Positions 42,377 through 47,008 of a DNA stretch of 47,149 nt are shown here, one piece after another; the first letter of the stretch is position 1; the number at the start of each line of letters is the position of its first letter. The notes beneath the pieces are model-generated. The model was given only the letters and a program-made list of their open reading frames with translations. It was not told where the DNA came from and searched no databases. A program made the translations under genes and the position numbers. Location of the stretch: the sequence record MZ501080, one strand, 5' to 3'. Origin of the DNA: Escherichia phage JeanPiccard.

Positions 42377-42586
42377 ATGGAAGCTGTAATTATCGAAGAT
42401 TTCGCAGGTGACAGCACGGAGGTGTCGACTTCAGTATATTACGACGGCATCGTGAGCATTGACATTGACCTGGATAACTTAGGCGATAGATACACGCTCG
42501 CCCACTATACACCAGAGGCGGCCCGCAAATTGGCGGCGGCATTAATCCTGGCGGCGGACGAGGCGGACGAGGTGGAGAAAAAATGA
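42377..42586 (+). CDS. hypothetical acidic protein (start uncertain)
   Basis: GAGGAA RBS before ATG 42377; track ORF starts at 42323. Confidence 0.4.
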   Translation: MEAVIIEDFAGDSTEVSTSVYYDGIVSIDIDLDNLGDRYTLAHYTPEAARKLAAALILAADEADEVEKK

Positions 42587-42846
42587 AACGTTTAATGACA
42601 TGCATGACCATTATTGCGGCAATTATTGCTCTTACTGGTTGCGAGAAAGCACCGGAGGTTCAGATTCAGTCAGGTGAATTCAATGTGGAGCGTCTATTCA
42701 CAGTGGATGGATGTACCGCCTACCGATTCCGAGATAGCGGTAAAGCCGTCTACTACACAAATTGCCATGGCAGTACGCAGAGTGAGTACAAGTCCGGCAA
42801 GGTCACGAAACAAGAAATAGTTCAGACAAATCGCACGAATTGGTAA
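42583..42846 (+). CDS. lipoprotein
   Basis: signal peptide MKRLMTCMTIIAAIIALTG followed by Cys (lipobox LTGC); 87 aa. Confidence 0.55.
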   Translation: MKRLMTCMTIIAAIIALTGCEKAPEVQIQSGEFNVERLFTVDGCTAYRFRDSGKAVYYTNCHGSTQSEYKSGKVTKQEIVQTNRTNW

Positions 42847-43028: not shown

Positions 43029-43646
43029 ATGGCTAAAATAATCATTCTTAATGGACCTGCTTCTATTGGTAAGGACACTATCGGTAACGCGCTTGTGAAA
43101 GATTACAATTGCATCCCGACAAGCTTTAAGCTTCCTATTTTTGAGATCGCAGCTTCAGTCCTTGGCACTCGGGCGTTCAGTAAGTTCATCACGGCTTATA
43201 ATGACCGAGATCAGAAAGAGATGCCTCATGATTTTCTCGGTGGGAAAACGTGTCGAGAGTTCATGATCTGGATTAGCGAGTCGGTGGTCAAGCCGCTATT
43301 TGGCAATCAGCACTTCGGTAAGCTGACGAGCGAGCGTATCCAGCTTTGTGACGAGGGATTTAGCTTTGTTTGCACTGATGGCGGTTTTCCTGATGAGGTT
43401 ATACGCCTGGTGGAAGATGGTCACTATGTTACCGTTGTGCGCCTGTTCATGGATGGCAAGACCTTCGCGGGAGATAGCCGTGATTATATCCGCATCAAGG
43501 AATCGCACTTCCCTGATTATAGGCAATATAACGAGCATGATGTACATCTGGTGAATGGTGATATTGACGGCGGCGTCATGGCAGTGGTTCGCGCCTGCGG
43601 TATCCGTCCTGCAATCGACGAGTGGGCCGACGATATTCCCTGGTAA
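43029..43646 (+). CDS. P-loop kinase (deoxynucleoside monophosphate kinase-like)
   Basis: Walker A GPASIGKDT at N-terminus (the GKDT form recalled from phage dNMP kinases). Confidence 0.55.
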   Translation: MAKIIILNGPASIGKDTIGNALVKDYNCIPTSFKLPIFEIAASVLGTRAFSKFITAYNDRDQKEMPHDFLGGKTCREFMIWISESVVKPLFGNQHFGKLTSERIQLCDEGFSFVCTDGGFPDEVIRLVEDGHYVTVVRLFMDGKTFAGDSRDYIRIKESHFPDYRQYNEHDVHLVNGDIDGGVMAVVRACGIRPAIDEWADDIPW

Positions 43647-43647
43647 A

Positions 43648-43665
43648 TAGCACGAATTGCTAAAC
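43648..43665 (+). promoter_or_regulatory. dyad motif TAGCACGAATTGCTAAAC (family copy q)
   Basis: exact consensus copy directly after kinase stop. Confidence 0.45.
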
Positions 43666-43719
43666 CAGCTCCGGCGGGTTCTGTTATAGTTAGTTCACAC
43701 CAAACGAGAGGAAAGATAA

Positions 43720-43911
43720 ATGATTACGATTAACCTATCAGAAGAAATGGCCGCTGACCTTATTGATTCACTAAGCCTGGTTAAAATTCGATATGGAACT
43801 TACCACATGAGCGAATCAGTAAAGGAAGTGGTAAAGCAAGTTAAGCAGCAGGTCGGAGCTACCAAAATCGAATTGCAGAACACCCCATACGATTTTAATA
43901 AAGGTGAATAA
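43720..43911 (+). CDS. hypothetical protein (MITINLS paralog 1)
   Basis: 63 aa; N-terminus MITINLSEEMAADL. Confidence 0.45.
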   Translation: MITINLSEEMAADLIDSLSLVKIRYGTYHMSESVKEVVKQVKQQVGATKIELQNTPYDFNKGE

Positions 43912-43912
43912 G

Positions 43913-44140
43913 ATGATTACAATCAACCTGTCAGACAAGCAGGCGGCAGAACTCAAGTCCATGATGAACTCTTTCATGCCAACGCGCTGCGACGGTCAGC
44001 GTAATGTGGTAGATGAGGTTAGAGACCAAATCAACAATCAGCAATTCGACGTCAGTGACTTCGAGTCATCACGTCAGTACGAGGCGCTTAGCGTTAATGC
44101 TGCATACCTGGCTAACTGGGATAAGGCAACGAAGAAATGA
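43913..44140 (+). CDS. hypothetical protein (MITINLS paralog 2)
   Basis: 75 aa from ATG 43913 (AAAGGTG RBS); N-terminus MITINLSDKQAAEL. Confidence 0.45.
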   Translation: MITINLSDKQAAELKSMMNSFMPTRCDGQRNVVDEVRDQINNQQFDVSDFESSRQYEALSVNAAYLANWDKATKK

Positions 44141-44283
44141 TTTACATCCACACTTACTACACTGGCAAGTTCAATAGCGTTAAGCACGTTCGGGTTTATG
44201 AGGATTTTAAAGAAGCATTCAAGCAGCAGGAGGTTCTTGGTGGAGTTGTCCAGGAATGTGAAATTCTAGAAGAATACAAATAG
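44137..44283 (+). CDS. hypothetical small protein (48 aa)
   Basis: ATGA overlap with upstream stop; stop TAG supplied by dyad motif. Confidence 0.35.
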   Translation: MIYIHTYYTGKFNSVKHVRVYEDFKEAFKQQEVLGGVVQECEILEEYK

Positions 44284-44299
44284 CACTAATTGTTAAAAC
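44281..44299 (+). promoter_or_regulatory. dyad motif TAGCACtaatTGTTAAAAC (family copy r)
   Basis: followed by hairpin TGGGGTAA..TTACCCCA enclosing TGATATAGT and CATCGAAACGAA leader. Confidence 0.4.
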
Positions 44300-44353
44300 A
44301 ACATTGGGGTAATTTGATATAGTTACCCCATCGAAACGAATGAGGACAAACAG

Positions 44354-44599
44354 ATGGATAAAGACCCAATATTTGACATGATGATGAGTCAGTGTGAGGC
44401 AGTGGGTAAAGAAATGGCAATGCGGTTCCACCAATCAGAGCCCAAGCTACAGGCCAACCACTTCGACGGCTACGCAACATTCATCATTGCCCAGGCGTGC
44501 GGTATGCGTGAAGAGCCACAGGTTCACAGCATTCACTTGACCGAAGAACAGGCTAGAGAACTGGCTTACGAAATTCTAGAGCAACTTAATAAAATTTGA
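44354..44599 (+). CDS. hypothetical protein
   Basis: 81 aa ORF downstream of motif and leader. Confidence 0.45.
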   Translation: MDKDPIFDMMMSQCEAVGKEMAMRFHQSEPKLQANHFDGYATFIIAQACGMREEPQVHSIHLTEEQARELAYEILEQLNKI

Positions 44600-44608
44600 G
44601 GTTACAAA

Positions 44609-44764
44609 ATGGCTACTTGGGTTCTTGTTATAATGATTTACAATGCTGGAGTTGAGAGCATTGAGATGGATAGTAAGCAAACCTGCATAGAGGCAGTGGA
44701 AATTATAATGGATAATAAGGTGTCATCTCAAACAAAGGCTGTTTGCATCAGGAAAAAAGAATAA
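44609..44764 (+). CDS. hypothetical small membrane protein (51 aa)
   Basis: TGAGG RBS; hydrophobic N-terminus MATWVLVIMIYNAGV. Confidence 0.35.
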   Translation: MATWVLVIMIYNAGVESIEMDSKQTCIEAVEIIMDNKVSSQTKAVCIRKKE

Positions 44765-44809
44765 CAACACGCATTCTAACTAACAATAATTTAAGCAAGG
44801 TGATTCATC

Positions 44810-44941
44810 ATGAAAGTGCAAGAAAGCCCAGTGGAGTGGTGTAAGCGAATGCAGGACAAAGCCGAGACTGGTGAAGAGGCGATGGCTTATTACGAGCTGG
44901 CGCAAATGTGGATGGAACGGGAGAAGAAGAGCGATGATTAA
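44810..44941 (+). CDS. hypothetical small protein (43 aa)
   Basis: AAGGTG RBS; ATGA overlap with next ORF. Confidence 0.3.
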   Translation: MKVQESPVEWCKRMQDKAETGEEAMAYYELAQMWMEREKKSDD

Positions 44942-45086
44942 CACTTGTATATTTTTCTATGGCCATGAATTTATTGATGACCTAATCTACTTTCATGAAA
45001 AGTATGGTGACACATTCGAGTGTGACGGCGACAAAATTGAGGTGCTAGCGGTGTTTTATAGAGGTGGCAAAAATGAGCTTCACTGA
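44934..45086 (+). CDS. hypothetical small protein (50 aa)
   Basis: translationally coupled chain of small ORFs. Confidence 0.3.
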   Translation: MINTCIFFYGHEFIDDLIYFHEKYGDTFECDGDKIEVLAVFYRGGKNELH

Positions 45087-45225
45087 ATACGTTATCGCAT
45101 GTGAACGACTGGTCTTTGATATGAAGACTTTTCACTGGTTCATCATTAAGGATTTGATTAAGCCTTATAAGCAGGGTGTGACACCTGAGGCATTTATCAA
45201 GAACTTCTATAGCACTAAAAGCTAA
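45073..45225 (+). CDS. hypothetical small protein (50 aa)
   Basis: ATGA overlap with upstream ORF. Confidence 0.3.
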   Translation: MSFTEYVIACERLVFDMKTFHWFIIKDLIKPYKQGVTPEAFIKNFYSTKS

Positions 45226-45282
45226 ACGCAGTCGCCAGGGATGGCATATAATTACCCCATCAACACAACGAGAGACTGAGAA

Positions 45283-45522
45283 ATGTTCGGACTAAATGAA
45301 GCGATGTTCAATGCGGTAAAGCGCCAGGCTAAAAAGCTCAACGATAAGTATGAGTCACTAAGCAAGCTGGACCGCAAGAATGATAAGTTGGTTGCTGGTA
45401 TCATAACTGAGATTTGGCAGCCTGTTTCCACAGTTATCAGTAGGGATCGATTTGTGTGGGTATCTGGTTATCTTAAGGGTCGCGTTGGTCATGACGAGAA
45501 TGGGAATAGTCTTTATGAGTGA
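45283..45522 (+). CDS. hypothetical protein
   Basis: 79 aa; ACGAGAG RBS region; preceded by TATAATTACCCCATCAACACAACGAGAG leader. Confidence 0.45.
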   Translation: MFGLNEAMFNAVKRQAKKLNDKYESLSKLDRKNDKLVAGIITEIWQPVSTVISRDRFVWVSGYLKGRVGHDENGNSLYE

Positions 45523-45579
45523 GTTGACAATCTGGTTTATTGCTGGGCTTATTACTTGGGCTTACTTTGGGGTATTGGC

Positions 45580-45807
45580 ATGAGAACATTGAGACAGATT
45601 TTACACGGTTGTAAGAAGCATCATTATGTTTACTTTCGTGATATTAAGTGGTTCGAGGATGCTCACTTTTTAGATGGCTACAAGACAAAGTTAGTATGCA
45701 AGAAATGCATGCACGTGGAGAACAGCATGGTGGATATGATGATTTGCCGCAGCACACTAGACTACATTGCGTATGGAAAGCTCAAACATCCACCAGTTAA
45801 ACCGTAA
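45580..45807 (+). CDS. hypothetical Cys/His-rich protein (possible zinc finger)
   Basis: ORF with CKKHH...CKKCMH...C pattern; start uncertain (track start 45556). Confidence 0.35.
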   Translation: MRTLRQILHGCKKHHYVYFRDIKWFEDAHFLDGYKTKLVCKKCMHVENSMVDMMICRSTLDYIAYGKLKHPPVKP

Positions 45808-46077: not shown

Positions 46078-46155
46078 GCTCTGCTAGCTCAACAGGACAG
46101 CAGCAACGACCTTCTAAGTCGTAGGTTACTGGTTCGAATCCAGTGCGGAGCGCCA
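46078..46155 (+). tRNA. tRNA-Arg(TCT): tRNA-Arg (anticodon UCU), CCA encoded
   Basis: manual cloverleaf: acceptor GCTCTGC/GCGGAGC (one G-U pair), anticodon stem ACGAC/GTCGT with loop CTTCTAA, T-arm ACTGG-TTCGAAT-CCAGT, discriminator G, then CCA. Confidence 0.7.
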
Positions 46156-46635: not shown

Positions 46636-46660
46636 AGCCCTCGCTTGAGGGCTTTTTTTC
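46636..46660 (+). terminator. rho-independent terminator
   Basis: hairpin AGCCCTCgcttGAGGGCT followed by T7 and conserved CGTCTGTA. Confidence 0.65.
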
Positions 46661-46739
46661 GTCTGTATGTTGACAATAATATATAGGTGCATTAGTATTA
46701 ACTCATCGGGGCGACCCACTAACCAGAAGGAGATTCAAA

Positions 46740-46979
46740 ATGATTACATTAAAAGCAATTCACAAAGATGGTAGCGAGCAGGTTTTTGAAGTTAAGAACT
46801 TCGGCCACAGAGCAATGCAGAACCGGATTGATGCTGTTGATTGTGATCGCGAGCCATTCAGTATTTACCTTAATGATGACTCGGTTGTCGTTGTGTACGC
46901 AATGAATTCGGCGGGTTCAACTGTTGGCAAGTACTTTTATTTTGATTCAGCAGGAGCCCGAGAAGATTACATATCTTAA
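46740..46979 (+). CDS. hypothetical protein
   Basis: 79 aa; strong RBS AAGGAG; preceded by TTGACA-like and TATAGG elements. Confidence 0.5.
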   Translation: MITLKAIHKDGSEQVFEVKNFGHRAMQNRIDAVDCDREPFSIYLNDDSVVVVYAMNSAGSTVGKYFYFDSAGAREDYIS

Positions 46980-46984
46980 AGCAT

Positions 46985-47008
46985 AGCCCCTTAATTGGGG
47001 CTTTTTTA
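46985..47008 (+). terminator. rho-independent terminator
   Basis: hairpin AGCCCCttaattGGGGCT followed by T6 and conserved ACGTCTG. Confidence 0.65.

What the first reader, a model, noticed from the sequence alone, without database searches (positions are those of the whole stretch)
44137..45225. Chain of very small, translationally coupled ORFs in the accessory region
Five ORFs of 43-51 aa (44137, 44609, 44810, 44934, 45073), plus 44354..44599, are packed with ATGA-type overlaps, one with a hydrophobic helix. Such micro-gene arrays in phage early regions often encode host-takeover or anti-defence peptides and are usually missed by annotation.
Basis: inference. Interest (0 to 1): 0.45.

Follow-up and report, generated by a model that had tools for sequence, protein, structure and literature searches.

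The report
Conserved tiny accessory genes, T1-like phage
The six small reading frames are real, conserved protein-coding genes of the variable small-gene cluster that T1-like coliphages carry upstream of their terminase; relatives already annotate them as hypothetical proteins, and their function is still unknown.

Summary
The window is a T1-like siphophage genome (Drexlerviridae, Braunvirinae; about 82-87% nucleotide identity to RobRod40 and JulesPiccard in this region). All six ORFs exist at the stated coordinates and are genuine genes. dN/dS against seven relatives is 0.02-0.44 with near-saturated dS. Codon usage is positive only in the called frame. Five of the six fall in existing PHROG families, and relatives annotate them as hypothetical proteins. 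The "chain" is not one coupled string. A copy of the known 21-nt T1-family repeat, followed by a -10-like hexamer, sits at 44280-44323 and another at 45209-45252. These split the region into short units: 43720-44283, 44354-45225 and 45283 onward. Only one junction is a true ATGA overlap. Two are 8- and 14-nt overlaps and the rest are gaps of 9, 45 and 70 nt. The "hydrophobic helix" of 44609 is too short to span a membrane. A real 22-aa hydrophobic micro-ORF lies outside the finding at 45515-45583. ORF 44609 is a roughly 165-nt cassette inserted at a slot that holds other cassettes in relatives. No function could be assigned from Pfam, NCBIfam, PADLOC, PDB sequence searches or fold searches. 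Early expression and an anti-defence role remain untested inference. This is an ordinary, already catalogued feature.

The parts
43647..43690 (+). T1-family 21-nt direct repeat (ATAGCACGAATTGCTAAA, 43647-43664) with a -10-like TATAGT at 43685-43690. Promoter-like module that heads unit A.
   Evidence: repeat described in PMC11447400
43720..43911 (+). 63-aa gene, the short DUF7180 paralogue (MITINLSEE...). First gene of unit A.
   Evidence: Pfam DUF7180 E=1.8e-7; 92% identical homologue in JulesPiccard; codon score +0.31
43913..44140 (+). 75-aa DUF7180 gene (phrog_16063). It starts 1 nt after the previous stop, and its own stop overlaps the next start (ATGA).
   Evidence: Pfam DUF7180 E=2.2e-22; phrog_16063 E=4.7e-40; dN/dS 0.07-0.27
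44137..44283 (+). 48-aa gene (phrog_3955; homologue of Rtp rtp9 and part of T1p04). Predicted beta-beta-alpha-beta mini-domain. The ATGA overlap with the DUF7180 gene is conserved in 7 of 7 relatives.
   Evidence: dN/dS 0.18-0.44; pLDDT 91; 354 phage records
44280..44347 (+). Promoter-like module between units A and B. Repeat at 44280-44297 (its TAG is the stop codon of the 48-aa gene), inverted repeat TGGGGTAA/TTACCCCA at 44305-44312 and 44323-44330, -10-like TATAGT at 44318-44323, conserved leader ATCGAAACGAA.
   Evidence: z=-4.6; z=-2.7; 80-87% identical copies in 730 phage records
44354..44599 (+). 81-aa gene (phrog_7411). The conserved core is residues 23-81, and most relatives encode only a 59-60-aa form. 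GAGGA lies 7 nt upstream of the ATG.
   Evidence: (dN/dS 0.05-0.16); AF2 model of low confidence, pLDDT 66
44609..44764 (+). 51-aa gene (phrog_5579) carried on a cassette of about 165 nt, inserted between the stop of the 81-aa gene and the leader of the 43-aa gene. Two invariant Cys. The N-terminal hydrophobic stretch is too short for a membrane span.
   Evidence: (69 records, all 50% identity or less; Tempevirinae and Krischvirus)
44810..44941 (+). 43-aa acidic, probably helical gene (phrog_1312), widespread in coliphages and Salmonella phages.
   Evidence: dN/dS 0.03-0.42; 245 records
44934..45086 (+). 50-aa acidic gene with no PHROG family. Present in only some relatives, and where present it overlaps the genes on both sides.
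   Evidence: dN/dS 0.08-0.12; 18 records
45073..45225 (+). 50-aa basic gene (phrog_22596), the most constrained of the array. A narrow lineage-specific family. Its last codons (YSTKS) are encoded by the next repeat.
   Evidence: dN/dS 0.02-0.12; 69 records, 85-98% identity; three credible 50%-identity clusters, plus a weak 16-residue match in a 1,727-aa protein, in 1.84 billion proteins
45209..45252 (+). Promoter-like module heading unit C. Repeat at 45209-45226 (inside the 3' end of the 50-aa gene) and -10-like TATAAT at 45247-45252.
45283..45522 (+). 79-aa gene (phrog_303). First gene of unit C, outside the finding.
   Evidence: dN/dS 0.04-0.31
45515..45583 (+). 22-aa hydrophobic micro-ORF (MSELTIWFIAGLITWAYFGVLA). 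8-nt overlap upstream and ATGA overlap downstream. This is the only real candidate for a membrane peptide in the neighbourhood.
   Evidence: sequence; Kyte-Doolittle 19-residue mean 1.83; codon score +0.20; relatives annotate 29-35-aa CDSs at this position; homology of those CDSs not checked
45580..45807 (+). 75-aa basic, Cys/His-rich gene that continues the coupled series.
   Evidence: (79% identical homologues in T145P1 and JulesPiccard)

Best explanation
Shown: the region is part of the variable small-gene cluster that T1-like phages carry between the dNMP-kinase gene and the tRNA-Arg/terminase genes. Each of the six ORFs is a real protein-coding gene under purifying selection.

Shown: the genes are grouped into short units. 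Each unit is headed by a copy of the T1-family 21-nt repeat, with a -10-like hexamer at a fixed distance downstream and a start codon about 74 nt from the start of the repeat. Within a unit, most genes are placed so that a ribosome finishing one gene can start the next (1- or 9-nt gaps, or 4-, 8- or 14-nt overlaps; the one exception is the 45-nt gap before 44810). Each gene also has its own purine-rich ribosome-binding stretch.

Shown: the array is a mosaic.
- A backbone is shared across Braunvirinae: DUF7180 gene - 48-aa gene | 81-aa gene - 43-aa gene - 50-aa gene (45073) | 79-aa gene.
- Single-gene cassettes drop into fixed slots in this backbone (44609, and 44934 in only some relatives).
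- Three of the families (44137, 44609, 44810) also occur in unrelated phage groups.

Inferred: the products are small, soluble, mostly acidic single-domain proteins with no catalytic signature. They most likely act by binding host or phage macromolecules stoichiometrically during infection, as dispensable modulators. The targets and the timing of expression are unknown.
For: Phage identity and synteny.

Real genes:
- Homologues in seven relatives.
- dN/dS 0.02-0.44 with dS of about 0.3-2.5.
- Synonymous changes are seen directly in the most conserved N-terminus.
- Frame-specific codon usage.
- PHROG families for five of six.
- tblastn record counts: 354, 69, 245, 18 and 69.

Unit structure:
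- Repeat modules at 43647, 44280 and 45209, all co-oriented with the genes.
- A fixed -10-like hexamer in 64 distinct copies.
- The repeat is described for TLS, T1, Rtp and Rogue1 in PMC11447400.

Coupling:
- Junctions read.
- The ATGA between the DUF7180 gene and the 48-aa gene is conserved in 7 of 7 relatives.
- There is an ATGA between the 43-aa and 50-aa genes in the four relatives that lack 44934.

Mosaic:
- Precise cassette boundaries for 44609.
- Homologues of 44609 lie between nrdA and nrdB in Krischvirus.
- The 44137 domain occurs in Vequintavirinae and fused to other domains.

Protein properties:
- pI 4.6-5.5 for five of six, and no membrane span.
- A confident compact fold for 44137.
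Against: There is no experimental evidence of transcription, translation or phenotype for any of these genes, here or in the literature searched.

No similarity to any characterised protein or fold was found, so 'binder/modulator' is inference from size, charge and mosaic distribution only.

The repeat modules lack a -35 element at 17 nt and have never been shown to be promoters. The TLS authors list their function as an open question.

Overlaps are compatible with coupling but do not prove it.
Confidence: 0.6

Rival explanations
1. The ORFs are chance open frames in non-coding or regulatory DNA and are not translated.
For: ORFs of 43-51 codons are common by chance. Several ORFs of similar length lie on the opposite strand in the same interval.
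Against: dN/dS is far below 1 in every called frame. Codon usage is positive only in the called frame. Protein-level homologues occur in 18 to 354 phage records, some in unrelated phage families. An AF2 model of 44137 reaches pLDDT 91.
Confidence: 0.03
2. The genes are specifically early anti-defence or host-takeover factors. Each product would inhibit a bacterial immune system or a housekeeping target soon after DNA entry.
For: The products are small and acidic. They sit in a variable, mosaic region where single-gene cassettes are swapped at fixed slots. Families are shared across unrelated phages that infect the same hosts. Established knowledge of phage accessory regions says such loci are enriched in counter-defence genes.
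Against: No match to any Pfam family, which includes the Pfam-represented anti-restriction families. No hits in the literature. The most conserved member (45073) is confined to one subfamily and is nearly invariant, which is unlike a fast-evolving arms-race gene. Expression timing is unknown, and the same repeat module precedes structural genes.
Confidence: 0.25
3. Some members are regulators of the phage's own gene expression. The tandem DUF7180 proteins, whose N-termini (MITINLS + helix) resemble a ribbon-helix-helix motif, would bind the partly palindromic repeat TAGCAnnnnnTGCTA, with the translationally coupled 48-aa protein as a partner.
For: Two DUF7180 paralogues lie in tandem, and the ATGA link to the 48-aa gene is conserved in 7 of 7 relatives. 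The repeat contains TAGCA/TGCTA arms. T1-like phages encode no RNA polymerase or sigma factor, yet almost all units carry this repeat.
Against: No ribbon-helix-helix or other DNA-binding family matched, even at E=10, and there was no PDB match. The resemblance is pattern recognition only. No structure was predicted for DUF7180.
Confidence: 0.1

Closest known systems
Small-ORF clusters of T1-like phages (Rtp rtp7-rtp17, T1 left-end ORFs such as T1p04, ACG-M12 gp66-gp78, SU57 end clusters)
   Same: Same genomic position (between the nucleotide-kinase genes and tRNA-Arg/terminase) and same orientation. Orthologous proteins: 44137 = rtp9-like; 45073 is 91% identical to an Rtp ORF; 44354, 44810 and 45283 match ORFs that ACG-M12 labels rtp11-, rtp12- and rtp15-like. 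Same repeat-headed units. All annotated as hypothetical proteins.
   Different: This phage combines the backbone with its own cassettes. Its 44609 gene is at most 50% identical to anything in the phage collection, and 44934 is present in only 18 records.
The 21-nt intergenic direct repeat of TLS/T1/Rtp/Rogue1 (aaATAGCACnnnTTGnTAAAA; PMC11447400)
   Same: Same consensus, same orientation as transcription, and about 74-76 nt upstream of start codons.
   Different: Here the conserved module extends further: a -10-like hexamer at a fixed offset of +38 and, in a subset, an inverted repeat bracketing it. The TLS paper sections read here describe only the 21-nt core and leave its function open.
Non-essential small early genes of T4-like phages (for example the ORFs between nrdA and nrdB)
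   Same: The 44609 family has members between nrdA and nrdB in Krischvirus/RB49-like phages. ACG-M12 annotates a neighbour as similar to RB49 gp55.3. They are also tightly packed, often overlapping small genes of unknown function.
   Different: Different phage family and promoter type. Identity is only 42-47%. No function is known for the T4-like copies either.

Membership tests
Genuine protein-coding gene | Reading frame conserved in relatives, with an excess of synonymous over non-synonymous change | tested here: met
   dN/dS is 0.02-0.44 for five of the six ORFs against up to 7 relatives. For 44609, 69 tblastn homologues share conserved Cys, Gly and Trp positions.
Genuine protein-coding gene | Codon usage like the genome's long genes in the called frame only | tested here: met
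   +0.13 to +0.35 bits/codon in frame, and negative in the other five frames.
Genuine protein-coding gene | Detected transcript or protein | not testable with these tools
   No expression data are available. Literature searches found none.
Translationally coupled operon | Stop and start codons overlap or lie within a few nucleotides, on one strand, with no promoter or terminator between them | tested here: inconclusive
   Met at 44137 (ATGA), 44934 (8 nt), 45073 (14 nt) and 44609 (9-nt gap). Not met at 44283/44354 (70-nt promoter-like module) or 44764/44810 (45-nt gap). Coupling itself was not measured.
PHROG families 3955, 7411, 5579, 1312, 22596 | Significant full-length match to the family profile | tested here: met
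   E = 1.4e-23, 4.4e-33, 1.4e-15, 3.2e-15 and 3.2e-37. 44934 matches no PHROG.
Membrane peptide (single transmembrane helix) | Hydrophobic stretch of about 19 or more residues with mean Kyte-Doolittle hydropathy above about 1.6 | tested here: not met
   For 44609 the best 19-residue mean is 1.19, and homologues show a beta-like alternating pattern. The neighbouring 45515-45583 micro-ORF does meet the criterion (1.83).
Known anti-defence or anti-restriction protein families | Sequence or fold similarity to a characterised inhibitor | tested here: not met
Known anti-defence or anti-restriction protein families | Inhibits a defence system or host factor in vivo | not testable with these tools
   Requires experiments.
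Phage early gene | Transcribed in the first minutes of infection from a host-recognised early promoter | not testable with these tools
   No consensus -35/-10 promoter lies upstream. The units carry the repeat-type module, which also precedes tail and replication genes. No time-course data exist.
T1-family 21-nt direct repeat | Match to ATAGCACnnnTTGnTAAA, in the direction of transcription, about 76 nt upstream of a start codon | tested here: met
   Exact matches at 43647 and 44280, and a match with two mismatches at 45209. They lie 73-74 nt from the next ATG. Definition taken from PMC11447400.
Ribbon-helix-helix regulator (for the DUF7180 neighbours) | Match to a ribbon-helix-helix family profile or fold | tested here: not met
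   Only DUF7180 matched. No ribbon-helix-helix family appeared at E up to 10. No structure was modelled.

The most novel reading that the evidence does not exclude
Two readings remain open.

(1) One of the strongly constrained micro-proteins is an unrecognised inhibitor of a host factor or immune system. The best candidates are the lineage-restricted, nearly invariant 50-aa product of 45073-45225, and the promiscuous beta-beta-alpha-beta mini-domain of 44137-44283, which also occurs fused to other domains.

(2) The repeat + fixed -10 hexamer + bracketing inverted repeat that heads these units is a distinct promoter architecture with no -35 element. T1-like phages would use it for nearly all transcription units. 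It is shared with some T4-like (Slopekvirus) phages. This would bear on the question the TLS authors left open.
Probability: 0.2. Interest if true: 0.55.

Novelty: already known. Interest (0 to 1): 0.22.

Why it matters
The practical result is modest. These frames should be annotated as genes, and the finding should not be counted as hidden coding potential. It documents which members of the T1-like small-gene cluster are backbone and which are swappable cassettes. It also identifies the two best targets for a functional screen: 45073-45225, an ORFan under the strongest constraint, and 44137-44283, a widespread mini-domain with a confident fold and no known analogue. About half of T1-type genes, mostly small ORFs, have no known function (PMC13164509), and how these phages shut off the host is unknown (PMC11447400). 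A screen of this array could address both.

Tried and rejected
Family and sequence searches that gave nothing:
- Pfam, NCBIfam and PADLOC scans of all ORFs gave nothing beyond DUF7180 for the two upstream neighbours.
- PDB sequence searches with single sequences and with profiles gave nothing below E=0.3.

Structure work:
- Against viral predicted structures (BFVD) it matched, apart from one MazZ-domain protein and one weak DUF7336 hit, only uncharacterised or unnamed phage proteins.
- The 44354 model was too poor (pLDDT 66) to search with.
- The AlphaFold-database library was not available.

Wasted search:
- One large protein search used a concatenation of five ORFs and returned only one hit. 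The trick does not work with that tool.

Other checks:
- A Zn-binding reading of 44934 (C5, H11, H21, C30) was rejected because three of those four positions (C5, H11, H21) vary in homologues.
- Rfam found only the tRNA.
- The promoter/terminator scan found no consensus promoter or terminator inside the finding on the + strand.
- Literature searches for PHROG numbers, close relatives, Drexlerviridae transcriptomics and anti-defence genes found nothing on these genes.
- The hairpin around the -10 hexamer showed no compensatory changes in orthologous copies, and some copies are broken. Only the comparison between paralogous copies supports it.
Full report
**What the window is.** The 47-kb window is a whole T1-like siphophage genome. 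It starts at the small terminase subunit (phrog_606). In the region of interest it is closest to Braunvirinae (Drexlerviridae) phages RobRod40, JulesPiccard/Bas03, BEK2/3 and the Veterinaerplatzvirus group, at about 82-87% nucleotide identity and with patchy coverage. The finding lies in the cluster of small genes between a deoxynucleoside-monophosphate kinase gene (43029-43646, phrog_139) and tRNA-Arg(TCT) (46078-46155). That cluster is followed by two terminators and then the terminase genes.

**Checking the observation.** Size alone is not evidence, because about one random frame in eight stays open for 43 codons, and the opposite strand has ORFs of similar length in the same interval. Three independent lines show that the + strand frames are real genes.
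- Codon usage trained on the window's long genes gives +0.13 to +0.35 bits per codon in the called frames and negative values in all five alternative frames. Long genes give 0.30 +/- 0.13.
- tblastn finds homologues of five of the six in seven related loci. Nei-Gojobori dN/dS is 0.02-0.44 while synonymous divergence is near saturation. In the most conserved stretch, the N-terminus of the 48-aa protein, the differences between relatives are third-position synonymous changes.
- Five of the six match existing PHROG families, with E from 1e-15 to 1e-37. The sixth, 44934, has homologues in 18 phage records.

ORF 44609 has no homologue in the close relatives but has 69 more distant ones, with invariant Trp, Gly and two Cys.

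**Where the description is imprecise.**
- Only one junction inside the finding is a true ATGA overlap (44137). The junctions at 44934 and 45073 overlap their predecessors by 8 and 14 nt. ORF 44609 starts 9 nt after a stop and 44810 starts 45 nt after one.
- 44283 and 44354 are separated by a 70-nt conserved intergenic module.
- The hydrophobic N-terminus of 44609 is about 13 residues, with a best 19-residue Kyte-Doolittle mean of 1.19, so it is not a membrane span. In homologues it looks like the first strand of a small alpha/beta domain.
- A true hydrophobic micro-ORF of 22 aa lies just outside the finding at 45515-45583 (mean 1.83). It overlaps the upstream gene by 8 nt and the downstream gene by ATGA.

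**Anatomy.** The intergenic sequences at 43647, 44280 and 45209 are copies of a motif found about 20 times in the window, always in the same orientation as the downstream genes. This is the 21-nt direct repeat aaATAGCACnnnTTGnTAAAA reported for TLS and noted there in T1, Rtp and Rogue1. It lies about 76 nt upstream of start codons. The authors list its function as an open question (PMC11447400). In 64 distinct copies from the window and 14 fetched loci, a -10-like hexamer (TATAGT, TATAAT, CATAAT and similar) sits at a fixed offset from the repeat, and there is no -35 element at 17 nt.

The finding therefore covers the last gene of one unit and all of the next:
- Unit A: 43720, 43913, 44137
- Unit B: 44354, 44609, 44810, 44934, 45073
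- Unit C, which follows: 45283, 45515, 45580

The repeat overlaps coding ends. Its TAG is the stop codon of the 48-aa gene, and the last five residues of the 45073 product are encoded by the repeat. This explains why homologues diverge there.

**Mosaic structure.** A backbone recurs in the Braunvirinae loci examined: DUF7180 gene - 48-aa gene | 81-aa gene (59-60 aa in most relatives) - 43-aa gene - 50-aa gene (45073) | 79-aa gene.
- The ATGA link between the DUF7180 gene and the 48-aa gene is present in 7 of 7 relatives.
- In the four relatives that lack 44934, the 43-aa gene overlaps the 45073 homologue by ATGA. Where 44934 is present it is inserted between them and overlaps both.
- ORF 44609 sits on a cassette of about 165 nt with sharp boundaries, between the stop of the 81-aa gene and the conserved leader of the 43-aa gene. 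RobRod40 carries an unrelated cassette in the same slot, while BEK2, CEB_EC3a and 12397I carry none.

Family ranges differ widely:

| Gene | Phage records | Range |
|---|---|---|
| 44137 (48 aa) | 354 | Drexlerviridae and Vequintavirinae; also occurs as a domain of larger proteins |
| 44810 (43 aa) | 245 | Includes Salmonella phages and JenP1 |
| 44609 (51 aa) | 69 | Other Drexlerviridae subfamilies, and between nrdA and nrdB of RB49-like phages |
| 45073 (50 aa) | 69 | Braunvirinae only, 85-98% identity |
| 44934 (50 aa) | 18 | |

The 45073 family has only three credible clusters at 50% identity, plus one weak 16-residue match inside a 1,727-aa protein, among 1.84 billion representative proteins.

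**Function.** I could not assign one.
- Pfam, NCBIfam and PADLOC gave nothing significant for the six ORFs, and PDB sequence and profile searches gave nothing.
- In the viral structure library the model matches many uncharacterised phage proteins, both stand-alone and fused, including one annotated with a MazZ domain.
- The 81-aa protein modelled poorly (pLDDT 66).
- Five of the six products are acidic (pI 4.6-5.5) and none has a membrane span.

From size, charge, the absence of catalytic motifs, strong purifying selection and cassette-like exchange, I infer that these are stoichiometric binders that modulate host or phage components. That is inference, not a result.

**Early expression.** Whether the genes are early cannot be decided. 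The units carry the same repeat module that precedes tail and replication genes. No expression data for a T1-like phage were found.

**Comparison with what is known.** The feature is the already described and annotated small-ORF cluster of T1-like phages. Reviews of the family note that about half of T1 proteins, mostly small ORFs, have no known function (PMC13164509). SU57 differs from its relatives mainly in the small genes at the genome ends (PMC7718038). The claim that such genes are usually missed by annotation does not hold for this family.

**Side observation.** In 6 of 35 sequence clusters of the repeat module, a perfect inverted repeat of at least 5 nt brackets the -10-like hexamer, with its 3' arm starting immediately after the hexamer. 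The arm sequences differ between copies. Shuffling gives 0.94 expected, and 1 of 2000 shuffles reached 6.
- The copy inside the finding (44305-44312 and 44323-44330) folds with z = -2.7 to -4.6.
- Orthologous copies show no compensatory changes and some are broken. I also chose the offset after looking at the data, so this is tentative.
- The whole module, hairpin included, also occurs upstream of a small gene in Slopekvirus T4-like phages.

**Verdict.** The functional interpretation remains untested.

Noticed in passing
window, about 20 sites, e.g. 504, 9221, 13231, 24011, 32130, 32456, 33284, 35198, 42303, 43647, 44280, 45209 (+) and 20978, 21726, 38667, 39450, 40601 (-): The T1-family 21-nt repeat ATAGCACnnnTTGnTAAA heads almost every transcription unit. 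A -10-like hexamer sits at a fixed offset (+38 to +43 from the start of the repeat), there is no -35 at 17 nt, and the start codon lies about 72-78 nt away. The repeat is known (PMC11447400), but its function is an open question.
   Followed up: partly
window 44305-44330, 42303 module, 38667 module (-); L008:2918, L011:594, 1650, 2660; L014:906: In a subset of the modules an inverted repeat brackets the -10-like hexamer, with different arm sequences in different copies. This holds for 6 of 35 clusters against 0.94 expected; 1 of 2000 shuffles reached 6. Orthologous copies show no compensatory change. Other modules (13231, 24011, 33284, 35198, 39450) instead carry a small hairpin inside the spacer, and some of these look like terminators.
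   Followed up: partly
L014:906-975 (Escherichia phage phT4A, Slopekvirus) and other phages of about 175 kb: The complete repeat + hairpin + TATAGT module, 82% identical over 72 nt to window 44275-44346, lies upstream of a small gene in T4-like Slopekvirus phages. This suggests that promoter-plus-gene cassettes move between phage families.
   Followed up: partly
window 45515-45583 (+): 22-aa hydrophobic micro-ORF MSELTIWFIAGLITWAYFGVLA. It overlaps the upstream gene by 8 nt and the downstream gene by ATGA. Relatives annotate 29-35-aa CDSs at this position.
   Followed up: partly
window 43720-43911 and 43913-44140 (+): Tandem DUF7180 paralogues, both starting MITINLS. The N-terminal strand-helix pattern resembles a ribbon-helix-helix motif, but no such family matched.
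   Followed up: partly
window 42583-42846 (+): 87-aa ORF with a lipoprotein-type signal (…ALTGC, phrog_6360). This may be the Cor-like superinfection-exclusion lipoprotein known from T1; not tested.
   Followed up: no
window 46636-46698 (+): An intrinsic-terminator-like hairpin (46636-46653) is followed directly by the best consensus sigma-70 promoter of the region (TTGACA-17-TAGTAT, 46670-46698), upstream of ORF 46740-46979. A second terminator lies at 46985-47002.
   Followed up: no
window 46078-46155 (+): tRNA-Arg (anticodon TCT), conserved at this position in all Braunvirinae relatives examined.
   Followed up: yes
L004:1755-2198 and protein P0062: In some relatives the homologue of the 81-aa gene is the C-terminal part of a longer ORF (147 or 186 aa), so the N-terminal region of this gene is a recombination junction.
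   Followed up: no
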